DNA of 64,000 nucleotides from an uncultured Actinomycetota bacterium (GTDB lineage Bacteria > Actinomycetota > Acidimicrobiia > Spongiisociales > UBA5794). Of this stretch, positions 37,811 to 56,017 are shown in pieces. The stretch spans positions 91,817 through 155,816 of the forward strand of contig CAVOXF010000001.1 in NCBI GenBank assembly GCA_963700375.1, given 5' to 3'. How positions within the stretch are numbered: position 1 is the first letter of the stretch; each line of letters starts with the position of its first letter. The translations under genes were made by a program, and so were the position numbers. The notes under the pieces are model-generated. The model was given only the letters and a program-made list of their open reading frames with translations, did no database searches and was not told where the DNA came from.

Positions 37811-38560
37811 TCAGGCCTCGTCGAGCCAGACGCCGACGGGATCCTGTTCGGAAACAACGACCCCACCGAGCACTTCTTCGCTGACCGCGAGGCCGGCAAG
37901 TTGGCCTTCGACGCGGAATGCGGTGATGTCGGGACGGTTCCCCATGAGACCGACAGAGATCACGCGTTCACCGACGATCGCCCAGAGCTGGTAGGTGCGA
38001 TTCTCGGCGAGCGTTGGGAGAGCGCTGCCGTCGATGAAGCCCTCTCCGTCCGTCGTGACGACGACGTCTGCGACGACAGTTCCGCCAGCCGGATCGACCA
38101 GGTCGACGGTCAACGATCCGGGGAGTTCCGCCGACGCGAGCGCAAGCGCTTCGAGGCCTTTGGGCTCCGACTGATTCTGATTCACCAGCAGACCGGCGGT
38201 CAGGGAGACGGCAACCGCGACGGCGGCGACACTTCCGATGATCGGGGCGAGACGGCGCCACGGCGATCGACGAGGAGCATCGACATCGGGAGCATCGGCG
38301 TCGGGAGCATCGGCGGGAGGCAGGCCCGGGGAGGATTCCAGACCTGCCGCCAGCGCGATGCGATCCCACAACTGAGGCGAGGCTGCGGGCACAACGTCGG
38401 AGAATCCCTCGACGAGATCGGCGGCAACCTCTCGGTAGGCCTCGTACTCGTCGCTCAGTTCGTCATCGAAATCGATTGCGACCGATACGAGGGCGCTCTC
38501 GTCCTCTGGGAGGGCGTTGAGGGCGTGCGCCGCGACTGCGTCGTCGAGGTTCTGGCTCAT
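37811..38560 (-). CDS. membrane-spanning anti-sigma factor (RskA-like)
   Basis: Acidic N-terminal sigma-binding region, a single TM (IIGSVAAVAVAVSLTAGLLV) and an extracytoplasmic C-terminal domain. It is translationally coupled to the upstream ECF sigma. Confidence 0.6.
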   Translation of the reverse strand: MSQNLDDAVAAHALNALPEDESALVSVAIDFDDELSDEYEAYREVAADLVEGFSDVVPAASPQLWDRIALAAGLESSPGLPPADAPDADAPDVDAPRRSPWRRLAPIIGSVAAVAVAVSLTAGLLVNQNQSEPKGLEALALASAELPGSLTVDLVDPAGGTVVADVVVTTDGEGFIDGSALPTLAENRTYQLWAIVGERVISVGLMGNRPDITAFRVEGQLAGLAVSEEVLGGVVVSEQDPVGVWLDEA

Positions 38561-39219
38561 GCGAGGACAAGGGCTTCCTCACCGAGTAGCTCCTTCAGGC
38601 GGCTCATGCCCCTGCGGATGCGGCTCTTGACGGTGCCTTCCGGCAGGTCGAGGGCTTCGGCCACTCGGCGATACGAGTGTCCCTGGAAGAACGCAAGGGC
38701 AATGGGCAGACGCTCGTCTGGCTCCAGCGTTTCGAGGGCATGTCGGATTCGTTCCGATGAGATTCTCTTCATGACTTCTTCTTCGAGACTCATCGGGGAG
38801 TTGGATGACGCCGAAAGCTGCTGCTCACGGATTTCTCGATCGGCCCGTGCCCGCTCGGAGCGGAGCAGATCGACCGACCGGCCGTGCGCATCGAGCTGGA
38901 GGAAGCCACTCAGGCTCCCCCGGCTGGGGTCGAAGCGCTCGGGGCGTTGCCAGATGCGGACGAACACTTCTTGGACCACGTCCTCGGCCAATTCCGAACG
39001 ACGGAGCACGCCGAATGCCGTGCGGTACACCTTCTGGCCGAACCGCCGGTATGCCTCGCTGAGCGCCTCTTCACGCTGGTCGAGGAGCGCCTCCCAGAGA
39101 TGACGGTCCTCTGAGGACTCGGAGATTCGGTGCGGAGCGGTCGGGGCAAGAACCGGTGCCGTGGCTCCGATCTCCCGTGCGGCGGTGAGTGTCATGTGTG
39201 GTCTCCAGTCAGTGGTCAT
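38557..39219 (-). CDS. ECF-type RNA polymerase sigma factor
   Basis: Sigma-70 region 2 (AEDVVQEVFVRIWQ) and region 4 (SYRRVAEALDLPEGTVKSRIRRG). The start is probably ATG 39195. Confidence 0.8.
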   Translation of the reverse strand: MTTDWRPHMTLTAAREIGATAPVLAPTAPHRISESSEDRHLWEALLDQREEALSEAYRRFGQKVYRTAFGVLRRSELAEDVVQEVFVRIWQRPERFDPSRGSLSGFLQLDAHGRSVDLLRSERARADREIREQQLSASSNSPMSLEEEVMKRISSERIRHALETLEPDERLPIALAFFQGHSYRRVAEALDLPEGTVKSRIRRGMSRLKELLGEEALVLA

Positions 39220-39464
39220 TGTTTAGTGCTAAATGACTTAGTTAGTAAATATACACACGAATTCGGATACCGCAAATGGTTTTCGGAGATTTCTTCGCGA
39301 GAGGCTGAAGAGCGAACGCGAAAGCCTTGTGGGGTAAGGGTCGCGAGGTAGGCTCATCCGTCCGACCATTGCCGCCAAGGACGGCGTTGGCGCCCCCCAC
39401 ACCGTTCTTGCGCAACTATGGGAAGCCCGCTTCCACTATCTACGCAAGAACGGTGGAGGGTGGC

Positions 39465-39899
39465 CTAGGAGGACAGGGTCTGAGCGAACCGCCTCAGGTT
39501 TCGCTGCCAGATCCACCTCAGCACCGGGGCGGCGAAGAGCGCGGTCGCTCCTCCGCCGAGGTACCAGGGGAACGCCAGGTCTTCGAGCCAGACGAAGCGG
39601 GTCCCGCCTTCGGTCGGCACCAACACGAATACACCAATGCCGGTGACCAGGCCGCGGTGGGTGACGCCGATGCTCTCCCCCTCGATCCAGGACCGTACCG
39701 AGATGACATCATTGGTCACGAACGGACCGACGCGCGTCCTCACAATCATCTCGGTTCCAATGCCGCGGCGCTGATCGTCGGCGAAGTCGATCCGCTCGGC
39801 ATCGGTCATCCATTCAGAATGCTGCTCGAGCTTGGAGAGCTCTGCCCACACCTCGGATGTCGGCAGGGGCAGGTCGACGGACGCCACGATCAGCGTCAT
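39465..39899 (-). CDS. SRPBCC (START/Bet v1-like, polyketide_cyc2) family protein
   Basis: About 145 aa with an SRPBCC fold signature (SEVWAELS...W). Confidence 0.6.
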   Translation of the reverse strand: MTLIVASVDLPLPTSEVWAELSKLEQHSEWMTDAERIDFADDQRRGIGTEMIVRTRVGPFVTNDVISVRSWIEGESIGVTHRGLVTGIGVFVLVPTEGGTRFVWLEDLAFPWYLGGGATALFAAPVLRWIWQRNLRRFAQTLSS

Positions 39900-40879
39900 G
39901 GCCGTTCGACCGGATCCGGCCATCCCACCGGTGGTGTCCACCCGGTGGCCTCGCACAGAAACTGCCACAGCGCATCGTTTCCGGCATCACCGACGGCGGT
40001 TCGCTTCAGGCGGTGCTTCGACCGCGGGCGACGGTCCATCCAGAACTCCCCCGAAGAGCCGAGAGCGTCCGAATCAGACGCCAACCAGACGATCGTGTCG
40101 GCGCCCTGATCGGCGTTGCGCAAGAGCGGCCCCATGACCCGGCGGAACGTTGGGAGGGATGCGGCAACACCAGGGGTACTCACCCAGCCCGGATGCATCG
40201 AATGGGCCACCACTCCCGTACCGGCGAGCCGATCGGCCCAGATATCGGTCAGCACCACCTGCGCACGCTTCGTCCGCGCGTACGCGGCGGAACCGCCGTA
40301 TTCCTCGGGGCTCATTTCGATGCCCGAGACATCGAGCGCTTCGGTATACATGCCGCCGGACGACACGGTAATGATCCTCGCCGGTGCACTTTCCACCATG
40401 CGCGGGATCAGGAGATTCGTGAGCAGGAAGGTGCTCAGGAGATTCGTGGCGAGTGTGAGTTCGAAGCCGTCGGCGCTCGTCGACCGTTCAGGGGCGAGCA
40501 CCGAGGCGTTGTTGACGAGCACGTCGATCCGCCGTTCGCCGGCGAGCAGCTCATCGGCCAGGCGGTGAACCTGCTCGAGAGACGAGAGATCGGCACGATA
40601 CGCGGTAGCCCCGTCGACAGTTGACACCTCCGAAACCCCTGCCACAGCCTCGTCGAGCTTCTCCTGGTTCCGCCCAACGAGAACCACACGAGCCCCGAGA
40701 GCCGCCATCTGACGCGCCGCCGCGAGGCCGATCCCGGAAGTGGCACCGGTGATGACCGCGGTGGCTCCATCCATGCCGTCCATGCCCGCATCCCAGTCTC
40801 CGGATCGCAGGCGATACCCGATGTTCGTGAAGCTGCCGACAATCGACCCTTCGAGGATTCCGTCAGTCGTAAGTGCCAT
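39896..40879 (-). CDS. SDR family oxidoreductase
   Basis: TGATSGIGLAAA Rossmann motif, NNAS, and a YxxxK-type catalytic region. Confidence 0.8.
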   Translation of the reverse strand: MALTTDGILEGSIVGSFTNIGYRLRSGDWDAGMDGMDGATAVITGATSGIGLAAARQMAALGARVVLVGRNQEKLDEAVAGVSEVSTVDGATAYRADLSSLEQVHRLADELLAGERRIDVLVNNASVLAPERSTSADGFELTLATNLLSTFLLTNLLIPRMVESAPARIITVSSGGMYTEALDVSGIEMSPEEYGGSAAYARTKRAQVVLTDIWADRLAGTGVVAHSMHPGWVSTPGVAASLPTFRRVMGPLLRNADQGADTIVWLASDSDALGSSGEFWMDRRPRSKHRLKRTAVGDAGNDALWQFLCEATGWTPPVGWPDPVERP

Positions 40880-41331
40880 CAGCCGCCCTCTTTGGTCGAG
40901 AGTTCGCGCAGTCTCCGGTCGAGGCCTTCGACTGCGCCATCCCCGATCTTGCGGAGGAGCTTCCCGAGAAACGGTTCGGCGACGCGATAGATGCCCTTCA
41001 TCCGGATATCGGCGTGATACTCGACCGAAGTTCCCCGAGCAGACGGGAGGAAGGAGATACGGTCCACCGCAAAGGTGCGTTCGCCGTCACCTTCGAGGAC
41101 AACGCGACGCGGCGGATCCCACTCGGTGATGCGGTAGGTCATCGTGATCGGCGAGCTGCCGTAGCTCAGGTCGAGATCGTACGCGGTCCCAACGGACGGT
41201 GGGCCGTCCGTCATCTTCCGCACGGCAGTCACGCCGGGGTCCCATTCAGCGATGTTCTCAAAGTCGGCGACATAGTCGAACGCCGCCTCGACATGGAGGT
41301 CGGTCTCGACGGTCTCTGTGATAACTGGCAT
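40879..41331 (-). CDS. SRPBCC family protein
   Basis: 150 aa polyketide_cyc2-like protein (FDYVADFENIAEWDPGV). Confidence 0.6.
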   Translation of the reverse strand: MPVITETVETDLHVEAAFDYVADFENIAEWDPGVTAVRKMTDGPPSVGTAYDLDLSYGSSPITMTYRITEWDPPRRVVLEGDGERTFAVDRISFLPSARGTSVEYHADIRMKGIYRVAEPFLGKLLRKIGDGAVEGLDRRLRELSTKEGG

Positions 41332-41415
41332 GGTGGCCTCTCAGGATGGGCTCGGTATTGGTAGTGCTTCGAGACACGCTGCCGTCTTGGATGACGGGAC
41401 ATCCACGAACCGGCT

Positions 41416-43533
41416 GTGCTTCGAAGTACCGCCGACATGAGCACTGCACAGAAGAACATCGCCGTCATCGGCTCAGGGGTCTCGGGTCTGGGCGCTGCGT
41501 GGTCGTTGAGCCAGAGACACAACGTCACGCTCCTTGAGCGTGACCGACGCATCGGCGGTCACGCCAGAACCATCGACGTATCGATGGGAGACCGAATGGT
41601 TCCAGTCGACACCGGCTTCATCGTCTTCAACCATCGCAACTACCCGAACCTGACCAACCTCCTCGAGACGCTGGACGTGGCGACCGAAGCGACCGACATG
41701 TCGTTCTCGGTGAAGAGCGGCCGATATGAGTTTGCTGCAACCCCTAGTGCTCTGATCTCGAATCCCCGCCACCTGACCTCTCGCCGTACCTGGGCGATCC
41801 TGCGCGGCATCAACCGGTTCCGCAAGGACGTCGCCAACCATGCGGCGGTGGCCACCTCAGACTCGACCCTCATCGACTACCTCAGAGACGCCAACTACCC
41901 AGAGCCGTTCATCACCGACTACCTCCTGCCCCTGGCTGCAGCGGTGTGGTCGGGAGCCGGATCCGATGCTGCCTCCATGCCGGTGGGAACGTTCCTGCAT
42001 TTCCTCGCCAACCACGGTCTCTTCGAATTGGAGCGGCCCAGGTGGCGCACGATTTCCGGAGGCAGCCGCGAGTACGTCGATCGAATCTCCAAAGAGATCA
42101 CATCGGTGCGCACCGGAGTCGATGTCACCTCGGTCAAGCGAGTGACCGGCGGCGTCGAGGTCGAGACACCAGACGGCCTCCTGCGCTTCGACGATGTCGT
42201 CATTGCAGCGCATGCGCCGCAGACCGTCGAGCTCCTGGCCAACGACCTCGCTGCCGACGAGCGCGACATCCTCGGCACGTTCAACTACGCACCCAACCGT
42301 GCGGTTGTCCATCGCGACCCGTCGTTCATGCCCCGGCGCAAGGCGGCATGGTCGGCGTGGAACGCCGCCGGCACCGCCCCGGGATCCGATCAACCCGTCT
42401 CGGTCACGTACTGGATGAACCGACTCCAGAATCTCGACGAACGCCACGACGTCTTCATCACACTCAATCCGGAAACGGAACCTCTCGAGATCATCGACGA
42501 CATCTGGTACGCACACCCCCAGTTCAGCCCGGACACCGATCGGGCCCAGCAACGCCTCCCCGAGATCCAGGGACGCGGCGGCGTCTGGTACGCCGGAGCG
42601 TGGACCGGGTACGGCTTCCACGAAGACGGACTTCAGTCCGGCCTGACGGTGGCCGCCGCGCTCGGATCACCCGCTCCCTGGCACGACGACATCGTGCCGG
42701 CCACGCCGGCGGCGATCCATAGCGCTCCCGCCAATGGCCGGGGCTGCGGTATGACCTCCATCGCGAACTCGGCCATCTACGAGGGCACCACGACGCACGT
42801 CCGGCGGAAGCCGTTCGAGCATCGCCTGCAGTACGGTCTGTTCTCGCTGCTCGTCGATCTGGACGAACTCGATGATCTCGCCGAACTCCGATTCTTCTCG
42901 CACAATCGGAAGAACCTGATCAGCTTCTACGACGAGGACCATGGCGGTCGCGACGGCAGTCGAATCTCCGCGTGTGGATTACGGACGAACTGGCGAGGGC
43001 CGGTTTTGACGGAATCGCCCGGCAGGATTCGCCTGCTCTGCCTTCCCCGCATTGCCGGATACGAGTTCAATCCGTTGACCGTCTGGTTCATCGACGACGC
43101 CGAAGGAAACCCTCGCTGGATCATGTACGAGATCCACAACACATTCGGCGAGGCCCACTCGCATCTCGTCGAGGTCGACGGCGCCAACCACCACCGGCAC
43201 GGGTTCCGCAAGGAGTTCTTCGTCTCGCCGTTCTTCGACGTGGAGGGCGGATACCGGGTCCGGATCACCCAGCCGGGAGACCGGATGTCCGTCGCCATCA
43301 CCTACGTGGTCGACGATGAGACCGTCTTCACGGCGACCCTCACGGGCAGGAGGCTTCCACTCACTTCGAGGACCTTGCTTGGAGCCACCATTCGCTACCC
43401 GCTCATAACGTTCAAGATCATGGGCGCCATCCATTGGGAGGCGGCCAAGTTGTGGCTCAAGGGTGCCCGCTACCGCAAGCGTCCCACGGCACCAGTTGAC
43501 GCCGTCTCCGTTTCGACGAAGATGGCCGCATGA
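41416..43533 (+). CDS. COG2907 NAD/FAD-dependent oxidoreductase fused in-frame to a DUF1365 domain
   Basis: The N-terminal ~440 aa carry IAVIGSGVSGLGAAW...GGHARTIDV (COG2907). From MTSIANSAIYEGTTTHVRRKPFEHRLQY onward the sequence is a full DUF1365. There is no stop between the two parts. Confidence 0.75.
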   Translation: MLRSTADMSTAQKNIAVIGSGVSGLGAAWSLSQRHNVTLLERDRRIGGHARTIDVSMGDRMVPVDTGFIVFNHRNYPNLTNLLETLDVATEATDMSFSVKSGRYEFAATPSALISNPRHLTSRRTWAILRGINRFRKDVANHAAVATSDSTLIDYLRDANYPEPFITDYLLPLAAAVWSGAGSDAASMPVGTFLHFLANHGLFELERPRWRTISGGSREYVDRISKEITSVRTGVDVTSVKRVTGGVEVETPDGLLRFDDVVIAAHAPQTVELLANDLAADERDILGTFNYAPNRAVVHRDPSFMPRRKAAWSAWNAAGTAPGSDQPVSVTYWMNRLQNLDERHDVFITLNPETEPLEIIDDIWYAHPQFSPDTDRAQQRLPEIQGRGGVWYAGAWTGYGFHEDGLQSGLTVAAALGSPAPWHDDIVPATPAAIHSAPANGRGCGMTSIANSAIYEGTTTHVRRKPFEHRLQYGLFSLLVDLDELDDLAELRFFSHNRKNLISFYDEDHGGRDGSRISACGLRTNWRGPVLTESPGRIRLLCLPRIAGYEFNPLTVWFIDDAEGNPRWIMYEIHNTFGEAHSHLVEVDGANHHRHGFRKEFFVSPFFDVEGGYRVRITQPGDRMSVAITYVVDDETVFTATLTGRRLPLTSRTLLGATIRYPLITFKIMGAIHWEAAKLWLKGARYRKRPTAPVDAVSVSTKMAA

Positions 43534-44755
43534 CGAAGCCGACGACGCCCCGAACAGCACGCGCCATCCCAACGGTTCTCCGCCGCCTCGTGCGCGCAGG
43601 CACACTCCACGCCGACATTGAAGGCTCCATCGTCGACATCTCGGGCTCGGAAGCAGGCATCGAGGCGTGGATCACGATCAGCGACGCCGACGCGGTCGCC
43701 TCCCGCGTCCTGCGGACGGGTGGTGTGGGATTCGCCGAGGCCTATATCGATGGCCTGTGGGACACGACGGATCTGGCGACGCTACTCGAGTTCGCTGCCG
43801 AGAATCACGACCTCCGACGCCACACCGCTGTGTGGGAGACCGCCATGCGAACGTCACGGTCGGCGTGGGACCGCCTGCGCGGGGCCACCGGCACGTCCGC
43901 CGTCCAAACCATGGTCGAGCACTACGACCTCGGCAACGAGTTCTACGCCGCATGGCTCGATCCCTCGATGAGCTACTCGTCCGGCATCTTCACGAACGGC
44001 GCCGACCTCAATGCCGCCATGCGTACGAAGTACGAACGGATCGCGGCGCGTGCCGGCATCCAAGCCGGCGACCGCGTGCTCGAGATCGGGTGCGGGTGGG
44101 GAGCCATGGCCGAGTACGCGGCCGGGGAACTGGGATGCACGGTCACCGCGGTGACGATCTCGAAGGAACAGCACGACTACGTCGTCCGCCGCATGAAGAA
44201 CGCCGGGCTGGACGACCGAGTGAGGTGCTCCTCTCTGACTTCCGCGACATCGAAGGCGAGTACGAGCGGGTCATCTCGATCGAGATGATCGAGTCGATCG
44301 ACGAGGGATCTTGGGTCGACCTCTACGACGTGATCAGCCGATCACTCGTTCCCGGCGGCTCCGCCGCCCTGCAGGCGATCACCATCGATCACGACCTCCA
44401 CACGCAGATGATCGGTCGCGATGAGTTCATCCGTGCCTACATCTTCCCTGGTGGCGCACTCCCATCGACGAAGATCCTCCGCCAACTCGGCGAAGGCGCC
44501 GGTCTCGAGTGGATCGGCCTCTCGACCCACGGAACCAGCTATGCGAGGACCCTCCAGGCGTGGGATGAACGATTCGTCGCGGCGTGGCCCGTGATCGCCG
44601 AACAGTCAGATCGCTTCGACGAGCGGTTCTACCGGATGTGGCGCTACTACCTGGCCTACTGCATCGCAGGGTTCAGGAGTGGTCGCATCGACGGCGTCCA
44701 GGCGGTGTACCGCAAGCCGGGCACCGTTCTTGGCGATCCGTCGGTCACCTCCTGA
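43530..44755 (+). pseudogene. cfa: cyclopropane-fatty-acyl-phospholipid synthase with a -1 frameshift near 44222
   Basis: N-terminal part lies in frame of 43530 (SAM MTase motif VLEIGCGWG). The C-terminal part (VLLSDFRDIEGEYERVISIEMIESI) lies in frame of 43667. Restoring one G in GTG(G)AGGTGC reconstitutes DDRVEVLLSDFRD. Confidence 0.7.
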
Positions 44756-45607: not shown

Positions 45608-45786
45608 TTAGTAGGAAGATACCATGACCGCTTCGTTTCTGGAAGCTTCGAGGCATACGTTCACCCGTATCTCGCAGCCACTCGCAGAAGAGACTTGCTT
45701 CCCCTCATCCACCCATCACACCTGCTTCGTATAGAGAGTGTCCGCATGGTGCGGATTTAGTAATAAGTCTGAAAGGACATCCTCAC

Positions 45787-46851: not shown

Positions 46852-46857
46852 CGGTCT

Positions 46858-50430: not shown

Positions 50431-51327
50431 TCAGCCGATCAGGGACTGCAGGGCACCTTCGAGCGAGGGCGAGTCGAACGCGAAACCGTCTTCGGTCAAC
50501 CCGGCGGGGATCACGCGTTGCGACTGGAAGAGCAGTGCCTCCGCGAGCTCAGATCCGAGTATCGCCTTGAGAGCGAACGAAGGTGTTGGGAGGAGGGCTG
50601 GGCGCCGCAGAACAGCCCCAAGAGCATCGACGAACTCGCGGTTGGTGACCGGGTTCGGGGCGGTCAGATTGACCGGACCGGCCATCTCGGATGAAAAGGC
50701 GAGGTGAGAGAGGCCACGCACTTCGTCGTCGAGGGTGATCCAACTCCACCACTGGGTCCCGGGTCCCGTCCTTCCTCCGGCACCCAGCTTGAACGGCAGC
50801 AGCAGGCGCTGGAGCGCTCCCCCATCCTTCGAGAGCACGATCCCGGTTCGGGGATGCACGACTCGAATGCCGGCCGATGCAGCCGGGGCAGCTGCCTCCT
50901 CCCAAGCGGCCGTGACGTCGGCAAGGAAGCCGCTTCCCTGAGCGGCGGTCTCGTCGAGAATCTCGTCCCCGCGATCGCCGTACCACCCGATGGCTGACGC
51001 CGATACCAGGACTGCCGGTTTGCGCTCCAGCCCGGCGAGTGTGGAAGCCAGGAGGCTGGTTCCGAGCACGCGACTATCGAGGATCTCTTGCTTGTAGGAC
51101 TCGGTCCAGCGGTGGTCACCGATCCCGGCCCCTGCGAGGTGGACCACGGTATCTGCACCTTCGAGGCCTGCGGAATCAATCGTGCCGCCTGCCGGGTCCC
51201 ACTGGATCTCGTTCGGCTCTCGTGGCTCGCGTCGCACGAGTCGCACGATGTCGTGACCGCCGGCTCCGAGCCTCTCGACGAGCGAGCGGCCGATGAGGCC
51301 GCTGGCCCCGCTGATGATGACCCTCAT
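50431..51327 (-). CDS. TIGR01777 (YfcH) family NAD-dependent epimerase/dehydratase with DUF1731
   Basis: MRVIISGASGLIGRSL Rossmann motif. The C-terminus is DUF1731-like (PSFALKAILGSELAEALLFQSQRVIP). ATG at 51327 is confirmed. Confidence 0.8.
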   Translation of the reverse strand: MRVIISGASGLIGRSLVERLGAGGHDIVRLVRREPREPNEIQWDPAGGTIDSAGLEGADTVVHLAGAGIGDHRWTESYKQEILDSRVLGTSLLASTLAGLERKPAVLVSASAIGWYGDRGDEILDETAAQGSGFLADVTAAWEEAAAPAASAGIRVVHPRTGIVLSKDGGALQRLLLPFKLGAGGRTGPGTQWWSWITLDDEVRGLSHLAFSSEMAGPVNLTAPNPVTNREFVDALGAVLRRPALLPTPSFALKAILGSELAEALLFQSQRVIPAGLTEDGFAFDSPSLEGALQSLIG

Positions 51328-51443
51328 GGCCCGGTTCTCCGTTCTTCCGGCGCCTGTGCGCCTGGTGATGTTTGCTGGCCCCGTTCTTCGGAGCGTAGCG
51401 AAACGGTGTATGCGTTTGCCGGGCCGATCCTTCACCGCAGCGC

Positions 51444-52127
51444 CTACGCGCGGATCGGGACCGCGTACGCGACGACGTTGTCTTCGTAGCTGCGCAGAGA
51501 ACGGTTGAAGTCGCCACCACAGGTGATCAGAGTCAGCACGGGGTCGCCGGTCTTGGCGAAAACCCGCTCGGTTGGCAATTCCTGCTTGTCGTACTGGACG
51601 AGCTCGACGATCTCGAAAACGCTCGTCGTACCGTCGTCGAACTGGATCACAACGCGATCGCCGGCGCTTGCCTCGTCGAGATACCGGAACACTCCGGGCT
51701 GTCCGTCGAACGAGATGTGCGCGGCAAGCACGGCAGAGCCCGGCTCGCCTGGAGTGGCGTTGAATCGATACCACCCGACTTCGTCGGCTCCCGGAATCTC
51801 CATGTCACCGTTCTCTTCGACACCGACATCGAGCACAGCAGCGTCGGCAACGCCGATGCCGTCGATCGTGATCGATACTGGAACGGGGCGATCGTCGATG
51901 TGGTCCGCGGGGTCGTACTGAGCCGATCCGACGGGAGTCACCAGTTCTGCCAGCGGGGATCGGGCCGGCGTCGAGGTTGTCGCGGGTGCGACTGTTGTAG
52001 TCGTCGTCACGGGCGCGGTGGTAGCTGGCGTCGATACCGCAGCGTCTTCCGGCGCCGGCGAAGCCGACGAGCACGCAGCGAGAAGAAGTCCGGTGGCGAG
52101 TCCGAGGATGGCGATGCGGTGTCTCAT
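51444..52127 (-). CDS. class F-like sortase
   Basis: Lipoprotein-like signal and a T/P linker. The catalytic TLITC motif and the sortase His region (VLAAHISFDG) are present. Confidence 0.7.
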   Translation of the reverse strand: MRHRIAILGLATGLLLAACSSASPAPEDAAVSTPATTAPVTTTTTVAPATTSTPARSPLAELVTPVGSAQYDPADHIDDRPVPVSITIDGIGVADAAVLDVGVEENGDMEIPGADEVGWYRFNATPGEPGSAVLAAHISFDGQPGVFRYLDEASAGDRVVIQFDDGTTSVFEIVELVQYDKQELPTERVFAKTGDPVLTLITCGGDFNRSLRSYEDNVVAYAVPIRA

Positions 52128-52197
52128 GGTGTGAAATCGGAATCGGGGGCGAGGCTTGCGGCCCCACCCCCGATCTCCTTCATAGGTTGATACTGCT

Positions 52198-52989
52198 TCA
52201 GTTGCCGCGTCGTGCGAGGGTGAGACCTCCGCCGACCGCAATCGTGGCGATGACCAGCATGCCGGCGACCACCCCGAGCGGCATGCCGCTCTCGACTGGG
52301 CTGTTGCCCGTAGGCACGGCCTCGGGGGCAGCGCCAAGGCCGGTGATCGACTCGGTGAGGACGGTTAGTGAACCAGCCTCGAGCGATCCCACGGCGTAGA
52401 CGATCAGCGACTCGCCATCCTTGACCGCGATATCCGCCGGGCCAATGACGACAGGCTCATCGGCACCGGTCGGGACGACCTCGACGCTGTAGGTAGCGGC
52501 GGGCAGGTCGGCCTTCGCTTCGTTCGGGTTGCTCAGGTTGCTGAACGCCACGGCGCCATCAGCCTTCACATCGACGGCCGGAGCGGCGGCAGTGTGACGG
52601 ACCTGAAGACGACCGTTGCCGGCATCGATTGCCGCGGTGTCGTTGGCGAACACGGTAATCGTCGGCGTACCGGCGGCATCGAGATTCGCGATGATCGAGT
52701 AGTTGCCCGAGCCCGGGAGGTCGACATCACCGGCGTCGATCGCGACGGTGTCGGTACCGGCAAGGACGACCTGGAGGCCGACCAGCGTGGCGCCGGCGAG
52801 CGACGACAGATCCTGCGTGTCACCGAAGTTGAAGTCGGCGAAGACGATTTCGCCGTCAACGACAACGTCAACGGGGGTATCCGGGATTCCGTGAATCAGG
52901 TGGATACGTGCTTCGCTCTGAGCCATTGCGGGTGCTGCAATTGCCAGAGTCATCAGGGTTGCGGCGAATACCGCAATGAGCTTCTTCAT
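52198..52989 (-). CDS. secreted DUF4397 protein with C-terminal hydrophobic anchor and basic tail
   Basis: Signal peptide MKKLIAVFAATLMTLAIAAPAMA. The C-terminus ...EAVPTGNSPVESGMPLGVVAGMLVIATIAVGGGLTLARRGN resembles a sortase sorting signal. Confidence 0.55.
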   Translation of the reverse strand: MKKLIAVFAATLMTLAIAAPAMAQSEARIHLIHGIPDTPVDVVVDGEIVFADFNFGDTQDLSSLAGATLVGLQVVLAGTDTVAIDAGDVDLPGSGNYSIIANLDAAGTPTITVFANDTAAIDAGNGRLQVRHTAAAPAVDVKADGAVAFSNLSNPNEAKADLPAATYSVEVVPTGADEPVVIGPADIAVKDGESLIVYAVGSLEAGSLTVLTESITGLGAAPEAVPTGNSPVESGMPLGVVAGMLVIATIAVGGGLTLARRGN

Positions 52990-53198
52990 CGTGCCCCTCC
53001 TTTAAGGGTTGCTTGCCCCTTCTACGGGGCCGCCACGACGGATGGATGAGATTTGGTGGCAACTTTCCTGCGTGGTGAGCCCCCCTCTCCTCCGGCGGGA
53101 ACGACCGGCACTTGCTACCCCGGGGATCGCACCTCGCTCCCACCAACGCCATCCGGCGTTCTTGACAGACACGAAGTAGGGTCGGAAGAGAGGTCGCA

Positions 53199-54683
53199 AT
53201 GAAGATCGCCGTCACCGGCGCAACCGGATACATCGGGGGACGGCTCGTCCCTCTACTCATCGCCGAGGGCCACGAGGTGGTCTGCCTGGCCAGGAACCCT
53301 GCGAAGCTCGCAGGCCGATCCTGGACGAAACAGGTCGAGGCGGTCACCGCCGACGTGCTCCAGCCCGACTCGCTCGAGGGCGCCCTGCGCGGCTGCGACG
53401 TCGCTTTCTACCTGGTCCATTCCATGGGGAGCTCCGACAGCTTCCGGGACGTGGACAAGGCGGCGGCCACCAATTTCGCGCAAGCGGCCGAGGACGCAGG
53501 TGTGACCCGCATCATCTACCTCGGCGGGCTGGGCGACGAAGACGACCACCTCTCGAACCATCTCGGCAGCCGGCACGAGGTCGGACGAGCGCTCGCCGCA
53601 GGACCGGTTCCGGTCACTGAGGTGCGTGCCGCGGTGATCATCGGATCGGGGTCTGTGTCGTTCGAGATGCTCCGCTACCTCACCGAAGTCCTGCCGGCGA
53701 TGGTCACACCTTCGTGGGTGCAGACCCGCTGCCAGCCGATCGCTATTCGCGATGTTCTTCTCTATCTCGTCGCGTGTCTCGACGAAGACCAGGGCGGTCA
53801 CACCGTCTACGAGATCGGCGGACCCGAGGCACTCTCCTACCTGGAGATGATGCATGCGTATGCCAAGGTGGCAGGACTCCCCCGCCGCTTCGTGGTACCG
53901 GTTCCGGTGTTGAGCCCGCGACTCTCCTCCCTGTGGATCGGACTCGTGACACCACTCCCGGTGGGAGTCGCCCGACCCCTCGTCGACTCGCTCAAGAACG
54001 AGGTGATCGTTCATGACGACACCGCGCGTCGTCGCTTCGACATAGCACCGACACCCCTCACCCGGGCGATCGAGAGGGCTCTGGAGCACAGCCAGGACCT
54101 CAGCGTCGACACCCGATGGTCGGATGCGACGACAGGACCGGCCCAACCGTTCGAAGGTGATCCTGCGTGGAGCGGCGGAACGCTCTTCGTCGACCACCAG
54201 ACGGTGACCACCGTCGCGGACCCGGCCGATGTGTATTGGTCGTTTGCCCGGATCGGAGGTGACGTCGGCTACCACGGGTACAACTGGGCTTGGAGGCTCC
54301 GGGGAATTCTCGACATCGTGTTCGGCGGCGTCGGGCTGCGGCGCGGACGCCGCCACCCGGAGGACCTCCGACTGGAAGACACCGTGGACTTCTGGCGGGT
54401 CACCGGCGTTGAACCCGGGCACCGACTCCAATTGTCCGCCGAGATGCGCTTGCCGGGCGATGCCTGGCTCGAATGGAGCACGGAACGCGAGAACGGTCGG
54501 ACGCTGCTCCACCAGAGTGCATACTTCCGGCCGCGCGGGCTAAGTGGTCGCCTCTACTGGTACGCGCTCCTCCCCTTCCACGGATTCATCTTCGGAAACA
54601 TGGCTCGACAGATCGCCGCGACCGCCGAGCGTCGAGACCGCATCGCCCCGACAGCGCCCCCACCGTCGGACGGCCTCGAGTGA
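53199..54683 (+). CDS. NmrA-like NAD(P)-binding (atypical SDR) domain fused to DUF2867
   Basis: N-terminus KIAVTGATGYIGGRLVPLL. The C-terminal half matches the DUF2867 pattern. It is translationally coupled to the photolyase gene (GTGA overlap). Confidence 0.7.
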   Translation: MKIAVTGATGYIGGRLVPLLIAEGHEVVCLARNPAKLAGRSWTKQVEAVTADVLQPDSLEGALRGCDVAFYLVHSMGSSDSFRDVDKAAATNFAQAAEDAGVTRIIYLGGLGDEDDHLSNHLGSRHEVGRALAAGPVPVTEVRAAVIIGSGSVSFEMLRYLTEVLPAMVTPSWVQTRCQPIAIRDVLLYLVACLDEDQGGHTVYEIGGPEALSYLEMMHAYAKVAGLPRRFVVPVPVLSPRLSSLWIGLVTPLPVGVARPLVDSLKNEVIVHDDTARRRFDIAPTPLTRAIERALEHSQDLSVDTRWSDATTGPAQPFEGDPAWSGGTLFVDHQTVTTVADPADVYWSFARIGGDVGYHGYNWAWRLRGILDIVFGGVGLRRGRRHPEDLRLEDTVDFWRVTGVEPGHRLQLSAEMRLPGDAWLEWSTERENGRTLLHQSAYFRPRGLSGRLYWYALLPFHGFIFGNMARQIAATAERRDRIAPTAPPPSDGLE

Positions 54684-56017
54684 GCTCGCTGGTCTGGTTC
54701 CGACGGGATCTTCGCCTCTCAGAGAATCCGGCGTGGGCGGCAGCGACCACAGAACACGATGCTGTGGAAGCCCTATTCGTCCTCGACCAGCGACTGCTTT
54801 CGCTCGCGGGCAGCCTTCGACGCAATCTCCTGTTTGCCCATCTCGGTGCACTCGATGCCGAGCTGCGCAGACGTGGTGGCTGCCTCAGAGTGGAGACCGG
54901 GAGCCCGGGGGCCATCGTTCCCGCCATCGCGGCCGAGCACGACGCCGTCTACTGGAATCGCTCGTATACGCCGTTCTCGAGCCGGCGGGACGCCGAAGTA
55001 GCAGCGGCAATTGCACGGCCGATCGAAGCCTTCGACGGAGATGTGGTGCACCCCCCTGAGGCAGTGTTGACCGGGGGTGGTACGCCCTACCGAGTCTTCA
55101 CGCCGTACTACCGCAGGTGGAGCCAGACGCCGATCGAGCGGTCGCCGCGTGCGGGTGCAGCCGCCGTTCTCGGGCGGACCACCACCGGGACCCCGGTCGC
55201 CGAAGCACCCATCATGCTTGCCGGCGAGGCGGGCGCCCGCGAACGGTTGGAGCGGTTCATCGAGATCGTGGATCGCTACGAAGAGGACCGCGACCGACCC
55301 GACTTCGATCGGACATCCCATCTCTCAGCCGATCTGAAGTTCGGCACGATCTCGGCCCGCGCCGTGGCCGAGCGAGTCGGCGGGTCGACGGGCGGACGTC
55401 GCGCATTCGTCCGCCAACTTGCGTGGAGGGATTTCTACGCGCAGGTTCTCTTTCATTCCCCCTGGACGATCGACCATGCATACCGCGAGGATCTCGATTC
55501 GATCGCGTGGGCCAACGACGACACGGCTGTTCAGGCGTGGCAGGAAGCCAAGACCGGCTACCCGATCGTCGATGCCGGCATGCGTCAACTCCGGCTCGAG
55601 GGCTGGATGCACGGGCGAGTGCGCATGATTGCTGCTTCGTTCCTCGTCAAGGATCTTGGCATCGACTGGCGGGTCGGCGAGCGCCACTTCCGCCGGCTCC
55701 TCATCGATGCCGATCCGGCACAGAATGTCGGCAACTGGCAGTGGGTTGCAGGGACCGGCGCCGACGCGGCTCCGTACTTTCGCATCATGAACCCGGTTGC
55801 GCAGAGTCGGCGCTTCGACCCTGACGGTGCCTACATCCGCCGGTACGTTCCGGAACTGGCAGCGCTGGACGGTTCCAGTATCCACGCACCGTGGGAACGC
55901 CCGCTCGAGACGTCGGCAGCCGGCATCGTCCTCGGTACGGACTACCCCTATCCGATGGTCGACCACGGCGAAGCGCGTGAGATCACCTTGCGGCGCTTCG
56001 GAGCCGCCCGGGCCTGA
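54680..56017 (+). CDS. phr: deoxyribodipyrimidine photo-lyase (CPD photolyase)
   Basis: N-terminus LVWFRRDLRLSEN. The FAD-binding region (WRDFY, NWQWVAG, TGYPIVDAGMRQL) is present. Confidence 0.88.
   Translation: MSSLVWFRRDLRLSENPAWAAATTEHDAVEALFVLDQRLLSLAGSLRRNLLFAHLGALDAELRRRGGCLRVETGSPGAIVPAIAAEHDAVYWNRSYTPFSSRRDAEVAAAIARPIEAFDGDVVHPPEAVLTGGGTPYRVFTPYYRRWSQTPIERSPRAGAAAVLGRTTTGTPVAEAPIMLAGEAGARERLERFIEIVDRYEEDRDRPDFDRTSHLSADLKFGTISARAVAERVGGSTGGRRAFVRQLAWRDFYAQVLFHSPWTIDHAYREDLDSIAWANDDTAVQAWQEAKTGYPIVDAGMRQLRLEGWMHGRVRMIAASFLVKDLGIDWRVGERHFRRLLIDADPAQNVGNWQWVAGTGADAAPYFRIMNPVAQSRRFDPDGAYIRRYVPELAALDGSSIHAPWERPLETSAAGIVLGTDYPYPMVDHGEAREITLRRFGAARA

What the first reader, a model, noticed from the sequence alone, without database searches (positions are those of the whole stretch)
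37811..56017. Putative light and photo-oxidative-stress island: ECF sigma/anti-sigma, SRPBCC-SDR-SRPBCC, COG2907::DUF1365, CFA synthase, B12 photoregulator, heliorhodopsin, then DUF2867-photolyase
Within about 18 kb the window places together the following genes:
- an ECF sigma / transmembrane anti-sigma pair;
- an SRPBCC-SDR-SRPBCC trio;
- a COG2907 FAD oxidoreductase-DUF1365-cyclopropane fatty acid synthase module;
- a CarH/LitR-like B12-binding MerR regulator;
- a heliorhodopsin;
- an NmrA/DUF2867-photolyase operon.

The COG2907-DUF1365-cfa module plus an SDR and a photolyase form the conserved core of the Rhodobacter sigmaE-ChrR singlet-oxygen regulon. Here the anti-sigma is a membrane RskA type rather than ChrR. 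The cluster is also physically joined to two photoreceptor-type genes (B12/CarH and heliorhodopsin). Together this suggests an actinobacterial light-responsive envelope/DNA-protection regulon, which to my knowledge has not been described.
Basis: partly seen in the sequence, partly recalled or inferred. Interest (0 to 1): 0.75.

Follow-up and report, generated by a model that had tools for sequence, protein, structure and literature searches.

The report
Light-gated SigK-type photo-oxidative stress regulon
This stretch of an Acidimicrobiia-like actinobacterial genome holds a sigma-factor regulon (furan fatty acid genes, photolyase, envelope proteins) that looks to be switched on by a vitamin-B12 light sensor; it links the unexplained mycobacterial SigK regulon and heliorhodopsin to light stress.

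Summary
In detail: every listed gene is present at 37811-56017.

- **Promoter motif.** CATCC-N17-CG[AT]A occurs six times in the 64-kb window (1.36 expected), and all six lie inside the finding. Five sit just upstream of:
  - ufaD::ufaO-ufaM
  - SRPBCC-SDR-SRPBCC
  - a fasciclin lipoprotein gene
  - DUF4397-sortase
  - NmrA/DUF2867-photolyase

  The motif is conserved upstream of the orthologues in relatives.
- **Heliorhodopsin.** In 16 of 71 related heliorhodopsin loci the motif lies directly upstream of heliorhodopsin. It does not in this window.
- **B12 regulator.** It is not a MerR protein. It is an HTH_17 domain fused to a CarH-like B12 module. A palindrome, ATTTAGYRCTAAAT, is found only in loci that carry this regulator. 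It lies between a housekeeping-type promoter and the sigma gene, which suggests a light-relieved repressor placed above the sigma factor.
- **What is already known.** The core is not undescribed. It is homologous to the mycobacterial sigK-rskA locus (amine oxidase-DUF1365-CMAS-SigK-RskA, with fasciclin targets). Its content matches the Rhodobacter sigmaE-ChrR regulon, whose UfaD/UfaO/UfaM enzymes make furan fatty acids.

Verdict: a new variant of a known kind. Light control is inferred, not shown. The ufaM gene carries a 1-nt frameshift.

The parts
37811..38560 (-). Single-pass membrane anti-sigma factor, RskA type. It has no cysteines and overlaps the sigma gene stop by 4 nt.
   Evidence: Pfam RskA_C scores 43.7 bits against a cut-off of 29.4. 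NCBIfam anti-sigma model scores 87.6 against a cut-off of 100. No sequence match in the PDB.
38557..39219 (-). ECF sigma factor, SigK-like, with no cysteines.
   Evidence: Pfam Sigma70_r2 and r4_2. The best solved relative is Mtb SigK 4NQW (5e-18), followed by R. sphaeroides RpoE 2Q1Z (1e-16). The NCBIfam SigK model scores 137 bits, below its cut-off of 226. Identity to Mtb-type SigK is 29%.
38782..38807 (-). Internal ECF-type promoter motif in the sigma linker. An in-frame Met150 (38772-38770) follows 9 nt later. The predicted leaderless transcript would encode a 71-aa sigma-4 fragment plus the anti-sigma.
   Evidence: Position weight matrix score 25.6; this site was not used to build the matrix. 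The motif and the Met are conserved in L002, L004 and L018, and partly in L019, although the linker residues vary. Both are absent from the autoregulated sigma group L036/L041.
39221..39234 (.). Palindromic operator candidate GTTTAGTGCTAAAT, 1 nt upstream of the sigma ATG and downstream of the -10 element.
   Evidence: The palindrome ATTTAGYRCTAAAT (at most 1 mismatch) occurs 10 times in 2.19 Mb. Every copy is in a locus that carries the HTH_17-B12 regulator, and 9 of the 10 lie directly upstream of the ECF sigma gene.
39248..39275 (-). Housekeeping-type promoter candidate for sigma-antisigma: TTGCGG, 16-nt spacer, TATATT.
   Evidence: Read from the sequence and conserved in L001 and L002. The consensus scanner did not report it, because only 3 of 6 bases match in the -35 hexamer. 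Inferred.
39385..39470 (-). Long stem-loop between the SRPBCC operon and the sigma promoter. Probably a terminator or insulator.
   Evidence: Minimum free energy -49.9 kcal/mol, z = -5.9, 0 of 200 shuffles fold as well.
39465..39899 (-). SRPBCC protein. Its start at 39899 overlaps the SDR stop (ATGA).
   Evidence: Pfam Polyketide_cyc2, 1e-9.
39896..40879 (-). Short-chain dehydrogenase/reductase.
   Evidence: Pfam adh_short, 7.5e-34. Co-conserved next to ufaDO in 13 or more actinobacterial loci.
40879..41331 (-). SRPBCC protein, first gene of the minus-strand operon.
   Evidence: Pfam Polyketide_cyc2, 8.6e-19.
41368..41393 (-). ECF-type promoter of the SRPBCC-SDR-SRPBCC operon (CATCCAAGACGGCAGCGTGTCTCGAA), 36 nt before the ATG.
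   Evidence: Conserved in L001, L002, L004, L088, L091 and others.
41400..41425 (+). ECF-type promoter of ufaD::ufaO-ufaM, 11 nt before ATG 41437, so the transcript is nearly leaderless.
   Evidence: Conserved upstream of ufaDO in 9 genome loci. The related motif TGATCC-N16-CGTA occupies the same place in alphaproteobacteria. In the Mtb-type locus, CCGAATAC lies 6 nt (7 nt in M. marinum L083) before the annotated start codon of the Rv0449c homologue.
41437..43533 (+). UfaD::UfaO fusion: an FAD amine-oxidase-type desaturase fused to the DUF1365 oxygenase.
   Evidence: Pfam Amino_oxidase (73 bits) and DUF1365 (238 bits). 38% and 31% identical to the Mtb-type Rv0449c and Rv0448c homologues. Function taken from PMC7380195. 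The fusion is found in at least 585 genome contigs.
43530..44755 (+). UfaM-like SAM-dependent fatty-acid methylase (CMAS family), frameshifted by a 1-nt deletion at 44221/2.
   Evidence: CMAS model positions 5-116 and 110-272 fall in two different frames. Alignment to relatives locates the deletion. Adding one C restores a 408-aa ORF that is 38% identical to the Rv0447c homologue.
44777..45607 (-). HTH_17 domain fused to a B12-binding (CarH-like) photoreceptor-type regulator.
   Evidence: Pfam HTH_17, B12-binding_2 and B12-binding. The best solved relatives are photocobilins 8J2Y/8J2W, CtMerR 8JBS and CarH. Signature elements: GEAW, Wx9EH and GAYLP are present; GxxH reads TELH (sequence against PMC11796333).
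45606..45613 (.). Operator half-site ATTTAGTA overlapping the regulator's own start codon.
   Evidence: ATTTAGYA occurs only 3 times in 64 kb against 0.12 expected. Conserved in L001 and L002.
45706..45731 (+). ECF-type promoter of the fasciclin gene.
   Evidence: Conserved in L001, L002, L041, L052 and group-1 metagenome loci.
45755..45768 (.). Operator-like ATTTAGTAATAAGT in the fasciclin leader, preceded by a conserved stem (45740-45756).
45787..46851 (+). Lipoprotein with two FAS1 (fasciclin) domains, similar to MPT83/MPT70 and RSP1409.
   Evidence: Pfam Fasciclin matched twice, 1.4e-64. A lipobox is visible in the sequence.
46969..47730 (-). Heliorhodopsin. It has no ECF motif in this window.
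   Evidence: Pfam 327 bits. Match to 48C12 heliorhodopsin 6SU3 at 2.4e-87, with the retinal Lys and counter-ion Glu conserved. It is an ECF target in relatives.
50431..51333 (-). Epimerase/DUF1731 (YfcH-like) protein. A degenerate motif (CATAC-N17-CGAA) lies at 51387-51412.
   Evidence: Pfam. The motif scores only 8.9, below the shuffle maximum. The orthologues in L042, L091, L097 and L098 have a perfect motif.
51444..52127 (-). Sortase.
   Evidence: Pfam Sortase, 2.3e-21.
52198..52989 (-). Secreted DUF4397 protein with a C-terminal tail that resembles a sortase sorting signal.
   Evidence: Pfam DUF4397, 1.2e-22; sequence.
53023..53048 (-). ECF-type promoter of DUF4397-sortase.
   Evidence: Conserved in L091, L092, L094, L097 and L098.
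53150..53175 (+). ECF-type promoter of the NmrA/DUF2867-photolyase operon.
   Evidence: In L092, L094, L097 and L098 the same site reads GATCC-N17-CG[AT]AGTA.
53199..54683 (+). NmrA-like NAD(P)-binding protein with a DUF2867 domain.
   Evidence: Pfam. Clusters with ufaDO and photolyase in L041, L048 and L058.
54680..56017 (+). CPD photolyase. Its GTG start overlaps the upstream stop codon (GTGA).
   Evidence: Pfam DNA_photolyase and FAD_binding_7. NCBIfam PRK10674 scores 335 bits against a cut-off of 506. Sequence.

Best explanation
The interval encodes a two-tier regulatory unit for protection against light and photo-oxidative stress.

**Tier 1 (inferred).** A CarH-like, B12-dependent regulator with an HTH_17 DNA-binding domain binds the palindrome ATTTAGYRCTAAAT. 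This site lies between a housekeeping-type promoter and the start codon of the sigma-antisigma operon. The regulator also appears to bind sites at its own start codon and in the fasciclin leader. Photolysis of its adenosylcobalamin in light would release it, as in LitR-LitS of Streptomyces.

**Tier 2 (sites shown, sigma dependence inferred).** A SigK-like ECF sigma factor, held by a membrane RskA-type anti-sigma, transcribes at least five units from promoters CATCC-N17-CG[AT]A:
- ufaD::ufaO-ufaM, predicted to make furan fatty acids, which scavenge singlet oxygen in the membrane
- SRPBCC-SDR-SRPBCC
- a fasciclin lipoprotein gene
- DUF4397-sortase
- NmrA/DUF2867-photolyase

A sixth site, inside the sigma gene, would give extra anti-sigma (and a sigma-4 fragment) as feedback.

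**Heliorhodopsin.** It sits inside the island. In many relatives it is itself transcribed from the same promoter type, or from the B12-regulator operator.

In content and promoter type the unit is the actinobacterial counterpart of both the Rhodobacter sigmaE-ChrR singlet-oxygen regulon and the mycobacterial SigK-RskA regulon.
For: **Motif statistics and placement**
- Six motif hits against 1.36 expected, all inside the island. Five lie 11-55 nt upstream of start codons in the correct orientation.

**Conservation in relatives**
- The motif is conserved upstream of the orthologues in 9 or more genome loci and in the syntenic metagenome loci.
- 16 of 71 heliorhodopsin-centred loci carry the motif within 130 nt upstream of heliorhodopsin, against about 0.45 expected.

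**Related promoters at orthologous genes**
- TGATCC-N16-CGTA lies upstream of alphaproteobacterial ufaDO.
- A -10-like CCGAATAC lies 6 nt (7 nt in M. marinum L083) before the annotated start codon of the Mtb-type Rv0449c homologue.

**Sigma factor and locus homology**
- The sigma's best solved relatives are SigK and then RpoE.
- The Mtb-type locus has the same module.

**Palindrome and regulator**
- The palindrome occurs 10 times in 2.19 Mb, always together with the HTH_17-B12 regulator. Nine copies lie at the sigma gene and one lies upstream of a fasciclin-heliorhodopsin operon in L146.
- The B12 domain carries the light-responsive signature. Its nearest solved relatives are proven photoreceptors.

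**Independent support from other actinobacteria**
- A second group places a true MerR-B12 LitR-like gene in a cluster: photolyase-LitR-SRPBCC-SDR-ufaDO-ufaM-NmrA/DUF2867.

**Literature**
- UfaD/UfaO/UfaM pathway (PMC7380195).
- RpoE regulon content, including fasciclin (PMC7074977).
- SigK control of rv0445c-0449c and mpt70/83 (PMC4854729).
- Light induction of mpt70/83 homologues in M. kansasii (PMC9861118).
- RskA and an SRPBCC protein respond to UV in Nesterenkonia (PMC8965627).
- LitR with its partner ECF sigma LitS (abstract of PMC11519972).
Against: - There are no expression data. Sigma dependence of the motif and binding of the regulator to the palindrome are inferred from comparative genomics only.
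- The palindrome was noticed first and tested afterwards, although its exclusive co-occurrence with the regulator across 2.19 Mb was measured after that.
- In this window heliorhodopsin has no ECF motif and no palindrome.
- The regulator lacks a MerR domain, and its GxxH signature reads TELH.
- The NCBIfam SigK and CarH models score below their cut-offs.
- The sigma lacks the SigK cysteine pair.
- ufaM is frameshifted, so the lipid pathway may be inactive in this strain, unless the deletion is an assembly error.
- The anti-sigma's input signal is unknown.
- The product of the Ufa-like enzymes has not been shown to be a furan fatty acid outside alphaproteobacteria.
Confidence: 0.6

Rival explanations
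1. The ECF regulon is real but answers envelope, redox or nutrient stress rather than light, as is usually assumed for mycobacterial SigK-RskA. Under this reading the B12-binding regulator senses cobalamin status, or regulates only itself and fasciclin. Photolyase and heliorhodopsin are then neighbours by shared ecology, not by a shared signal.
For: - The signal for mycobacterial SigK-RskA is described as obscure, and its regulon responds to starvation, drugs and the intracellular environment (PMC4854729, PMC9861118).
- The regulon here includes envelope proteins (fasciclin, DUF4397-sortase).
- Heliorhodopsin has no ECF motif in this window.
- The GxxH signature is imperfect.
Against: - Photolyase sits behind an ECF promoter here.
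- Heliorhodopsin sits behind one in 16 related loci.
- Two unrelated kinds of B12 photoreceptor-type regulator are linked to the same gene set in different actinobacteria.
- Homologous regulons in Rhodobacter are induced by singlet oxygen (PMC7074977).
- The mpt70/83 homologues are induced by light in M. kansasii (PMC9861118).
Confidence: 0.22
2. The conserved bipartite motif is the binding site of another DNA-binding protein (an activator or repressor), not the -35/-10 of the ECF sigma.
For: No transcription start sites are known. The motif was defined by sequence alone.
Against: - The motif has two short blocks at a fixed 17-nt spacing, is strand-specific, and lies 7-55 nt upstream of start codons.
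- It resembles the promoter type found at orthologous genes next to sigmaE-type loci, and the -10 of the SigK-dependent Rv0449c promoter region.
- It occurs upstream of the sigma gene itself in the autoregulated group (L041).
Confidence: 0.06
3. The island is a chance juxtaposition of unrelated genes, and the annotations merely suggest a common theme.
For: Several genes in the interval (GNAT, tRNA_edit, MOSC, DUF5326-like) have no link to the theme and are variable in relatives.
Against: - The motif is enriched in the island: 0 of 100 shuffles reach 6 hits.
- The genes recur in shuffled order in at least five distinct arrangements.
- The promoter is conserved across loci whose proteins are only 40-60% identical.
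Confidence: 0.02

Closest known systems
Mycobacterial SigK-RskA regulon (ECF19): sigK locus Rv0449c-Rv0444c plus mpt70/mpt83
   Same: - The module is the same: amine oxidase, DUF1365 and CMAS next to an ECF sigma and a membrane anti-sigma with an RskA_C domain. Identities are 38%, 31%, 38% and 29%.
- Fasciclin-domain proteins are targets in both.
- A CGAA(T)-type -10 lies close to the start codon of the first gene.
   Different: - Here UfaD and UfaO are fused and transcribed divergently from the sigma.
- There is no DUF1295 gene.
- The sigma has no cysteines, so the redox disulfide is absent.
- The sigma operon has a housekeeping-type promoter with a palindromic operator and an adjacent B12 regulator, instead of autoregulation from the Rv0449c promoter.
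- Photolyase, SRPBCC-SDR and DUF4397-sortase are additional targets.
- The NCBIfam SigK model scores below its cut-off.
Rhodobacter sphaeroides sigmaE-ChrR (ECF11) singlet-oxygen regulon
   Same: - The regulon content overlaps: the sigma/anti-sigma pair, UfaD (RSP1091), UfaO (RSP1090), UfaM (RSP2144), photolyase phrA, an SDR (RSP1087) and a fasciclin protein (RSP1409) (PMC7074977, PMC7380195).
- The promoter is related: TGATCC-N16-CGTA in alphaproteobacterial loci against CATCC-N17-CG[AT]A here.
- RpoE is the sigma's second-best solved relative.
   Different: - The anti-sigma here is a membrane RskA type, not the soluble zinc/cupin ChrR.
- An upstream B12 regulator is present.
- The organism is monoderm.
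- Heliorhodopsin is linked to the unit.
LitR-LitS (Streptomyces) and CarH/CarA with CarQ-CarR (Myxococcus): B12 photoreceptor plus ECF sigma cascades
   Same: - An AdoB12-type light-sensing regulator gene lies next to an ECF sigma gene.
- The predicted logic is the same: light relieves repression and the sigma then drives protective genes (abstracts of PMC11519972 and PMC8156234).
- The B12 module carries the Wx9EH signature.
   Different: - The DNA-binding domain is HTH_17 (excisionase type), not MerR.
- The outputs are furan fatty acid, photolyase and envelope genes, rather than carotenoid genes.
- The operator is a 14-bp palindrome, not the direct repeats I recall for CarH (from my own knowledge; not checked here).
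Heliorhodopsin gene-neighbourhood groups (photolyase, MerR regulator, SDR) and the heliorhodopsin-photolyase partnership
   Same: Heliorhodopsin lies near photolyase, an SDR and a B12 regulator, as in published neighbourhood groups (PMC11109279, PMC9769723). This agrees with the proposal that heliorhodopsins act in photo-oxidative stress (PMC8612252).
   Different: - In this window heliorhodopsin is not in an operon with photolyase.
- The new element is transcriptional: an ECF (SigK-like) promoter or the B12-regulator operator lies directly upstream of heliorhodopsin in relatives.
- The held papers I searched do not mention sigma factors or furan fatty acid genes in this context.

Membership tests
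SigK-RskA (ECF19) sigma/anti-sigma system | ECF sigma (regions 2 and 4) most similar to SigK | tested here: inconclusive
   The best PDB match is SigK 4NQW (5e-18), but RpoE 2Q1Z is close behind (1e-16). The NCBIfam SigK subfamily model scores 137 bits against a cut-off of 226, and PRK12519 scores slightly higher. The ECF-group HMMs were not available.
SigK-RskA (ECF19) sigma/anti-sigma system | Co-transcribed single-pass anti-sigma with an extracytoplasmic RskA_C domain | tested here: met
   Pfam RskA_C scores 43.7 bits against a cut-off of 29.4. The genes overlap by 4 nt, and a transmembrane segment is visible in the sequence.
SigK-RskA (ECF19) sigma/anti-sigma system | Linked amine oxidase-DUF1365-CMAS genes, and fasciclin-domain targets | tested here: met
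   The same Pfam module is present in the Mtb-type and M. marinum sigK loci. In the window the fasciclin gene lies behind the ECF motif.
SigK-RskA (ECF19) sigma/anti-sigma system | Conserved cysteine pair forming the redox-sensitive disulfide in SigK | tested here: not met
   The sigma contains no cysteine. The aligned positions are Ser, Leu and Ile. Natural cysteine-less SigK proteins exist in Nocardia (PMC7509140).
sigmaE-ChrR (ECF11) system | ChrR-type anti-sigma (zinc-binding anti-sigma domain plus cupin domain) | tested here: not met
   The anti-sigma matches only RskA_C, has no cysteines and is membrane-anchored.
sigmaE-ChrR (ECF11) system | Core regulon content (FuFA genes, photolyase, SDR, fasciclin) behind the sigma's promoter | tested here: met
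   compared with PMC7074977 Table 1.
Furan fatty acid pathway (UfaM, UfaD, UfaO) | UfaD-type FAD desaturase, a DUF1365 UfaO and a CMAS-family methylase in one operon | tested here: met
   Pfam Amino_oxidase, DUF1365 (238 bits) and CMAS. The order ufaD-ufaO-ufaM is as in R. palustris RPA2571-2569 (PMC7380195). Caveat: ufaM is frameshifted.
Furan fatty acid pathway (UfaM, UfaD, UfaO) | Production of a methylated furan fatty acid | not testable with these tools
   Needs lipid analysis (GC-MS of fatty acid methyl esters).
CarH/LitR B12 photoreceptor regulators | N-terminal MerR-type winged helix | tested here: not met
   HTH_17 matches at 1e-13, while MerR matches at only 0.007, below its cut-off. 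The NCBIfam CarH equivalog scores 54.7 against a cut-off of 400 and covers only the B12 module.
CarH/LitR B12 photoreceptor regulators | Light-responsive cobalamin-binding module with the signature GxxW, EH, GxxH, GxxxP | tested here: inconclusive
   B12-binding_2 and B12-binding are present. GEAW, Wx9EH and GAYLP are present, but GxxH reads TELH: the His is kept and the Gly is replaced by Thr (against PMC11796333). The nearest solved relatives are photocobilins, CtMerR and CarH.
CarH/LitR B12 photoreceptor regulators | AdoCbl-dependent DNA binding that is released by light | not testable with these tools
   Needs a gel-shift (EMSA) or spectroscopy experiment.
Heliorhodopsin | Full-length match with the retinal Schiff-base Lys and counter-ion Glu | tested here: met
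   Pfam 327 bits. In the alignment to 48C12 (6SU3/9LJJ), LAKSALAW and RWIEYS are conserved.

The most novel reading that the evidence does not exclude
The SigK-RskA system of Actinomycetota, including the mycobacterial one whose signal is unknown, is ancestrally a response to light and singlet oxygen. Its logic would be: light (through a B12 photoreceptor) and oxidation of membrane lipids (through furan fatty acids acting on the RskA-type anti-sigma) switch on furan fatty acid synthesis, photolyase, fasciclin-type envelope proteins and heliorhodopsin. Heliorhodopsin would then be a light-induced member of a defined stress regulon. MPT70 and MPT83 would be remnants of a photo-oxidative envelope response.
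Probability: 0.3. Interest if true: 0.8.

Novelty: new variant of a known kind. Interest (0 to 1): 0.66.

Why it matters
Three open questions become testable from one locus.

1. **What activates SigK-RskA, and what are fasciclin antigens such as MPT70/83 for?** The regulon content here (photolyase, furan fatty acid genes) and the B12 regulator placed upstream point to light and singlet oxygen.
2. **What does heliorhodopsin do?** In relatives it is transcribed from the same ECF promoter type or from the B12-regulator operator. This gives a concrete regulon and concrete conditions in which to study it.
3. **Do Actinomycetota make furan fatty acids?** I found no held paper that connects Rv0447c-0449c with the Ufa pathway.

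The work also yields two defined sequence elements: a promoter (CATCC-N17-CG[AT]A) and a candidate operator (ATTTAGYRCTAAAT) for a B12 regulator with an HTH_17 domain. Both could be useful as light-switch parts.

Tried and rejected
- **Class-B palindrome.** I searched the window for GAACCTATGCA, the palindrome found upstream of ufaDO in a second group of actinobacteria. Only chance-level hits appeared, none at relevant promoters.
- **Sigma-70 and terminator scan.** The generic scan gave no promoter hits and chance-level terminators. The sigma promoter I propose falls below that tool's threshold.
- **Rfam.** No RNA family match anywhere in the window, so no cobalamin riboswitch.
- **ECF motif near heliorhodopsin, GNAT or the B12 regulator in the window.** A relaxed position weight matrix search found nothing above the shuffle maximum.
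- **Published SigK promoter consensus.** Veyrier 2008 (PMC2258859) is not held. I derived the comparison from an Mtb-type contig instead.
- **Flanks of the island.** Both sides are housekeeping genes (PDH E1, Cys/Met enzymes, hydrolases, pentose-phosphate enzymes). No carotenoid or retinal genes are present.
- **Anti-sigma against solved structures.** No match.
- **A correction to my own recollection.** I had recalled RSP1089 as a CFA synthase. The paper's table lists it as a sugar/cation symporter.
- **Not run.** I did not use structure prediction or the large protein-representative search, because the family assignments were already clear.

Full report
**1. Observation**

| Coordinates | Strand | Gene |
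|---|---|---|
| 37811-38560 | - | RskA_C anti-sigma |
| 38557-39219 | - | ECF sigma |
| 39465-41331 | - | SRPBCC, SDR, SRPBCC (translationally coupled) |
| 41437-43533 | + | Amino_oxidase::DUF1365 fusion |
| 43530-44755 | + | CMAS-family methylase |
| 44777-45607 | - | B12-binding regulator |
| 46969-47730 | - | heliorhodopsin |
| 53199-54683 | + | NmrA+DUF2867 |
| 54680-56017 | + | photolyase (GTGA overlap with the upstream gene) |

- The methylase is split over two frames by a single missing base at 44221/2. Eight relatives have an intact 408-aa ORF, and adding one C restores it.
- A lipoprotein with two fasciclin domains (45787-46851) lies between the regulator and heliorhodopsin.
- The regulator's DNA-binding domain is HTH_17, not MerR.
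- A DUF4397-sortase pair (51444-52989, -) also belongs to the unit.
- GNAT, a DUF5326-like gene, tRNA_edit and MOSC are passengers that some syntenic relatives lack.

Both flanks of the island are housekeeping genes. Rfam finds nothing.

**2. A shared promoter**

Reading the intergenic regions revealed an identical spaced motif upstream of ufaDO and of the fasciclin gene.

Generalised to CATCC-N17-CG[AT]A, it has six hits in 64 kb against 1.36 expected. None of 100 shuffles reaches six, and all six hits are inside the finding. A position weight matrix built from orthologous sites scores these six at 23.9-30.7. The next hit scores 9.2 and the shuffle maximum is 17.8.

Five sites lie 11-55 nt upstream of start codons in the right orientation:

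| Site start | Strand | Unit served |
|---|---|---|
| 41400 | + | ufaDO-ufaM |
| 41393 | - | SRPBCC-SDR-SRPBCC |
| 45706 | + | fasciclin |
| 53048 | - | DUF4397-sortase |
| 53150 | + | NmrA/DUF2867-photolyase |

The sixth site (38807, -) lies inside the sigma gene.

**3. Conservation**

A genome scan with the UfaD::UfaO fusion returned at least 585 contigs.

In alphaproteobacteria the fusion is followed by the methylase. It is often preceded by photolyase and by a divergent ECF sigma. The promoter there reads TGATCC-N16-CGTA.

In Acidimicrobiia and other Actinomycetota the fusion is accompanied, in shuffled order, by:
- SDR and SRPBCC
- the ECF sigma and anti-sigma
- the B12 regulator
- fasciclin
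- heliorhodopsin
- photolyase
- NmrA/DUF2867

.

The CATCC-N17-CGWA motif is conserved upstream of ufaDO (9 loci), fasciclin, the SRPBCC operon, the sigma gene itself (L041), Epimerase/DUF1731 (L042) and heliorhodopsin (L041, L052).

A heliorhodopsin-centred metagenome scan gave three results:
- Syntenic copies of the whole island were recovered. L091, on a 70.9-kb contig, runs from photolyase to anti-sigma.
- 16 of 71 loci carry the strict motif within 130 nt upstream of heliorhodopsin, against about 0.45 expected.
- In the window's own lineage heliorhodopsin has no such motif.

**4. The B12 regulator and its probable operator**

The B12 module's nearest solved relatives are experimentally light-responsive proteins: photocobilins 8J2Y and 8J2W, CtMerR 8JBS, and CarH.

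It carries GEAW, Wx9EH and GAYLP of the published light-responsive signature. The GxxH element reads TELH.

ATTTAGYA occurs only three times in the window against 0.12 expected: at the sigma start, at the regulator's own start, and in the fasciclin leader.

The full palindrome ATTTAGYRCTAAAT (at most 1 mismatch) occurs ten times in 2.19 Mb of window plus fetched loci. Every copy is in a locus that carries this regulator. Nine lie immediately upstream of the ECF sigma gene. One (L146) lies upstream of a fasciclin-heliorhodopsin operon.

In the window the palindrome sits between a conserved TTGCGG-16-TATATT promoter and the sigma ATG. A strong hairpin (-49.9 kcal/mol, z = -5.9) separates this promoter from the upstream SRPBCC operon.

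I infer a repressor that blocks sigma-antisigma transcription in the dark. This is analogous to LitR with its partner ECF sigma LitS.

A second group of actinobacteria supports the link to light. It lacks the ECF sigma but has a true MerR-B12 LitR-like gene in a cluster: photolyase-LitR-SRPBCC-SDR-ufaDO-ufaM-NmrA/DUF2867. A different palindrome lies upstream of ufaDO there.

**5. Comparison with known systems**

- **Sigma factor.** The best solved relatives are Mtb SigK (4NQW) and then R. sphaeroides RpoE.
- **Mycobacterial sigK locus.** I searched with the SigK sequence and fetched its contigs. The Mtb-type and M. marinum loci read Amino_oxidase-DUF1365-CMAS-DUF1295-SigK-RskA. This is the same module as here, at 29-38% identity. 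A CCGAATAC element lies 6 nt (7 nt in M. marinum L083) before the annotated start codon of the first gene.
- **SigK regulon in the literature.**
  - SigK controls rv0445c-0449c and the fasciclin antigens mpt70/83 (PMC4854729, PMC7509140).
  - Its signal is 'obscure', and the mpt70/83 homologues are induced by light in M. kansasii (PMC9861118).
  - RskA and an SRPBCC protein respond to UV in Nesterenkonia (PMC8965627).
- **Furan fatty acid pathway.** RSP1091 and RSP1090 are UfaD and UfaO of the furan fatty acid pathway (PMC7380195). They are needed for full sigmaE activation by singlet oxygen (PMC3546557, PMC6852236).
- **RpoE regulon.** The R. sphaeroides RpoE regulon also includes phrA, an SDR and the fasciclin protein RSP1409. 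R. capsulatus uses a SigK/RskA-like pair that is induced by singlet oxygen (PMC7074977).
- **Heliorhodopsin neighbourhoods.** Published neighbourhood groups include photolyase, MerR regulators and SDRs. A photo-oxidative role has been proposed (PMC11109279, PMC8612252, PMC9769723).

In the held library, searches combining heliorhodopsin or Rv0447c-0449c with ECF or furan fatty acid terms returned nothing relevant.

**6. Mechanism and its status**

Shown by sequence analysis:
- gene content
- promoter-like and operator-like sites, with their statistics and conservation
- homology to the SigK and sigmaE regulons

Inferred:
- that the sigma reads the motif
- that the B12 protein binds the palindrome and is released by light
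- that the Ufa-like enzymes make furan fatty acids
- that the RskA-type anti-sigma adds a second, membrane-derived input

An internal ECF-type promoter in the sigma linker is followed 9 nt later by a conserved in-frame Met. Both are conserved only in the lineages where the sigma is driven by the operator-controlled promoter. It may provide negative feedback through extra anti-sigma. This is speculative.

**7. Verdict**

It is not an undescribed kind of system. It is a variant of the SigK-RskA and sigmaE-ChrR photo-oxidative stress regulons, gated by B12 and linked to heliorhodopsin.

Its value lies in three things:
- it connects those two literatures;
- it provides a defined promoter and a candidate operator;
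- it places heliorhodopsin in a concrete regulon in relatives.

Main caveats: there are no expression data, the palindrome was found post hoc, ufaM is frameshifted, and the curated family cut-offs for SigK and CarH are not reached.

Noticed in passing
window 44221-44222 (within 43530-44755, +): The ufaM/CMAS gene has a single-base deletion, outside any homopolymer run. Eight relatives have an intact 408-aa ORF, and inserting one C restores it. It is either a recent pseudogene or an assembly error.
   Followed up: yes
window 38770-38807 (-), inside the sigma gene: An ECF-type promoter motif lies in the sigma-2/sigma-4 linker, followed 9 nt later by in-frame Met150. This predicts a leaderless transcript for a 71-aa sigma-4-only protein plus the anti-sigma. 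The motif and Met are conserved in L002, L004 and L018 although the linker residues differ. Both are absent where the sigma is autoregulated (L036, L041).
   Followed up: partly
L025 5324, L028 9885, L048 3399, L058 3842 (also L031, L079): A second group of actinobacterial ufaDO loci has a different palindrome, TGCATAGGTTC-N8-GAACCTATGCA, upstream of ufaDO. A MerR-B12 (LitR/CarH-like) gene lies beside photolyase, and there is no ECF sigma. The lipid genes there appear to be controlled directly by a LitR-type regulator.
   Followed up: partly
L092, L094, L097, L098: intergenic region between NmrA/DUF2867 and DUF4397: In these relatives the NmrA-photolyase promoter has GATCC, the alphaproteobacterial sigmaE-type -35, instead of CATCC. 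In L091 and L092 an operator-like TTACTACTAAAT or TTAGCACTCAAT abuts the -35 of the DUF4397 promoter.
   Followed up: no
window 45740-45756 (+), fasciclin leader: A short stem, TCCGCA-TGG-TGCGGA, lies just after the ECF -10 and abuts the operator-like ATTTAGTA. L002 keeps the stem through a compensatory change (TCTGCA..TGCAGA). It could be part of the operator or an RNA structure.
   Followed up: no
window 39385-39470 (-): A very stable hairpin with 32-nt arms (-49.9 kcal/mol, z = -5.9) lies between the SRPBCC operon and the sigma promoter. It has no U-tract.
   Followed up: partly
L001-L080 (genome scan): The UfaD::UfaO fusion is widespread: at least 585 contigs, mostly Alphaproteobacteria and Acidimicrobiia. 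In many alphaproteobacteria photolyase lies directly upstream on the same strand. The held furan fatty acid paper does not mention the fusion.
   Followed up: partly
L001 (CAXMQO010000035.1): This contig is labelled as a Saprospiraceae MAG, yet it is 87-91% identical in protein to this actinobacterial-type locus. It is probably mis-binned.
   Followed up: no
window 52198-52989 (-) and 51444-52127 (-): The DUF4397 protein ends in ..VPTGN, then a hydrophobic helix, then RRGN. This resembles a sortase sorting signal, and the next gene is a sortase. The pair lies behind an ECF promoter.
   Followed up: no
window 48350-48566 (-): A small membrane-protein ORF (MNETEDLHRRPSPVGMVIGWVVAALLIFLAQRDL...) lies upstream of the GNAT-heliorhodopsin genes. 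It has not been annotated.
   Followed up: no
L002, at the position aligned to window ~44600: The closest genome relative has its own 2-nt gap in the CMAS gene. This suggests indel errors in some of these assemblies.
   Followed up: no
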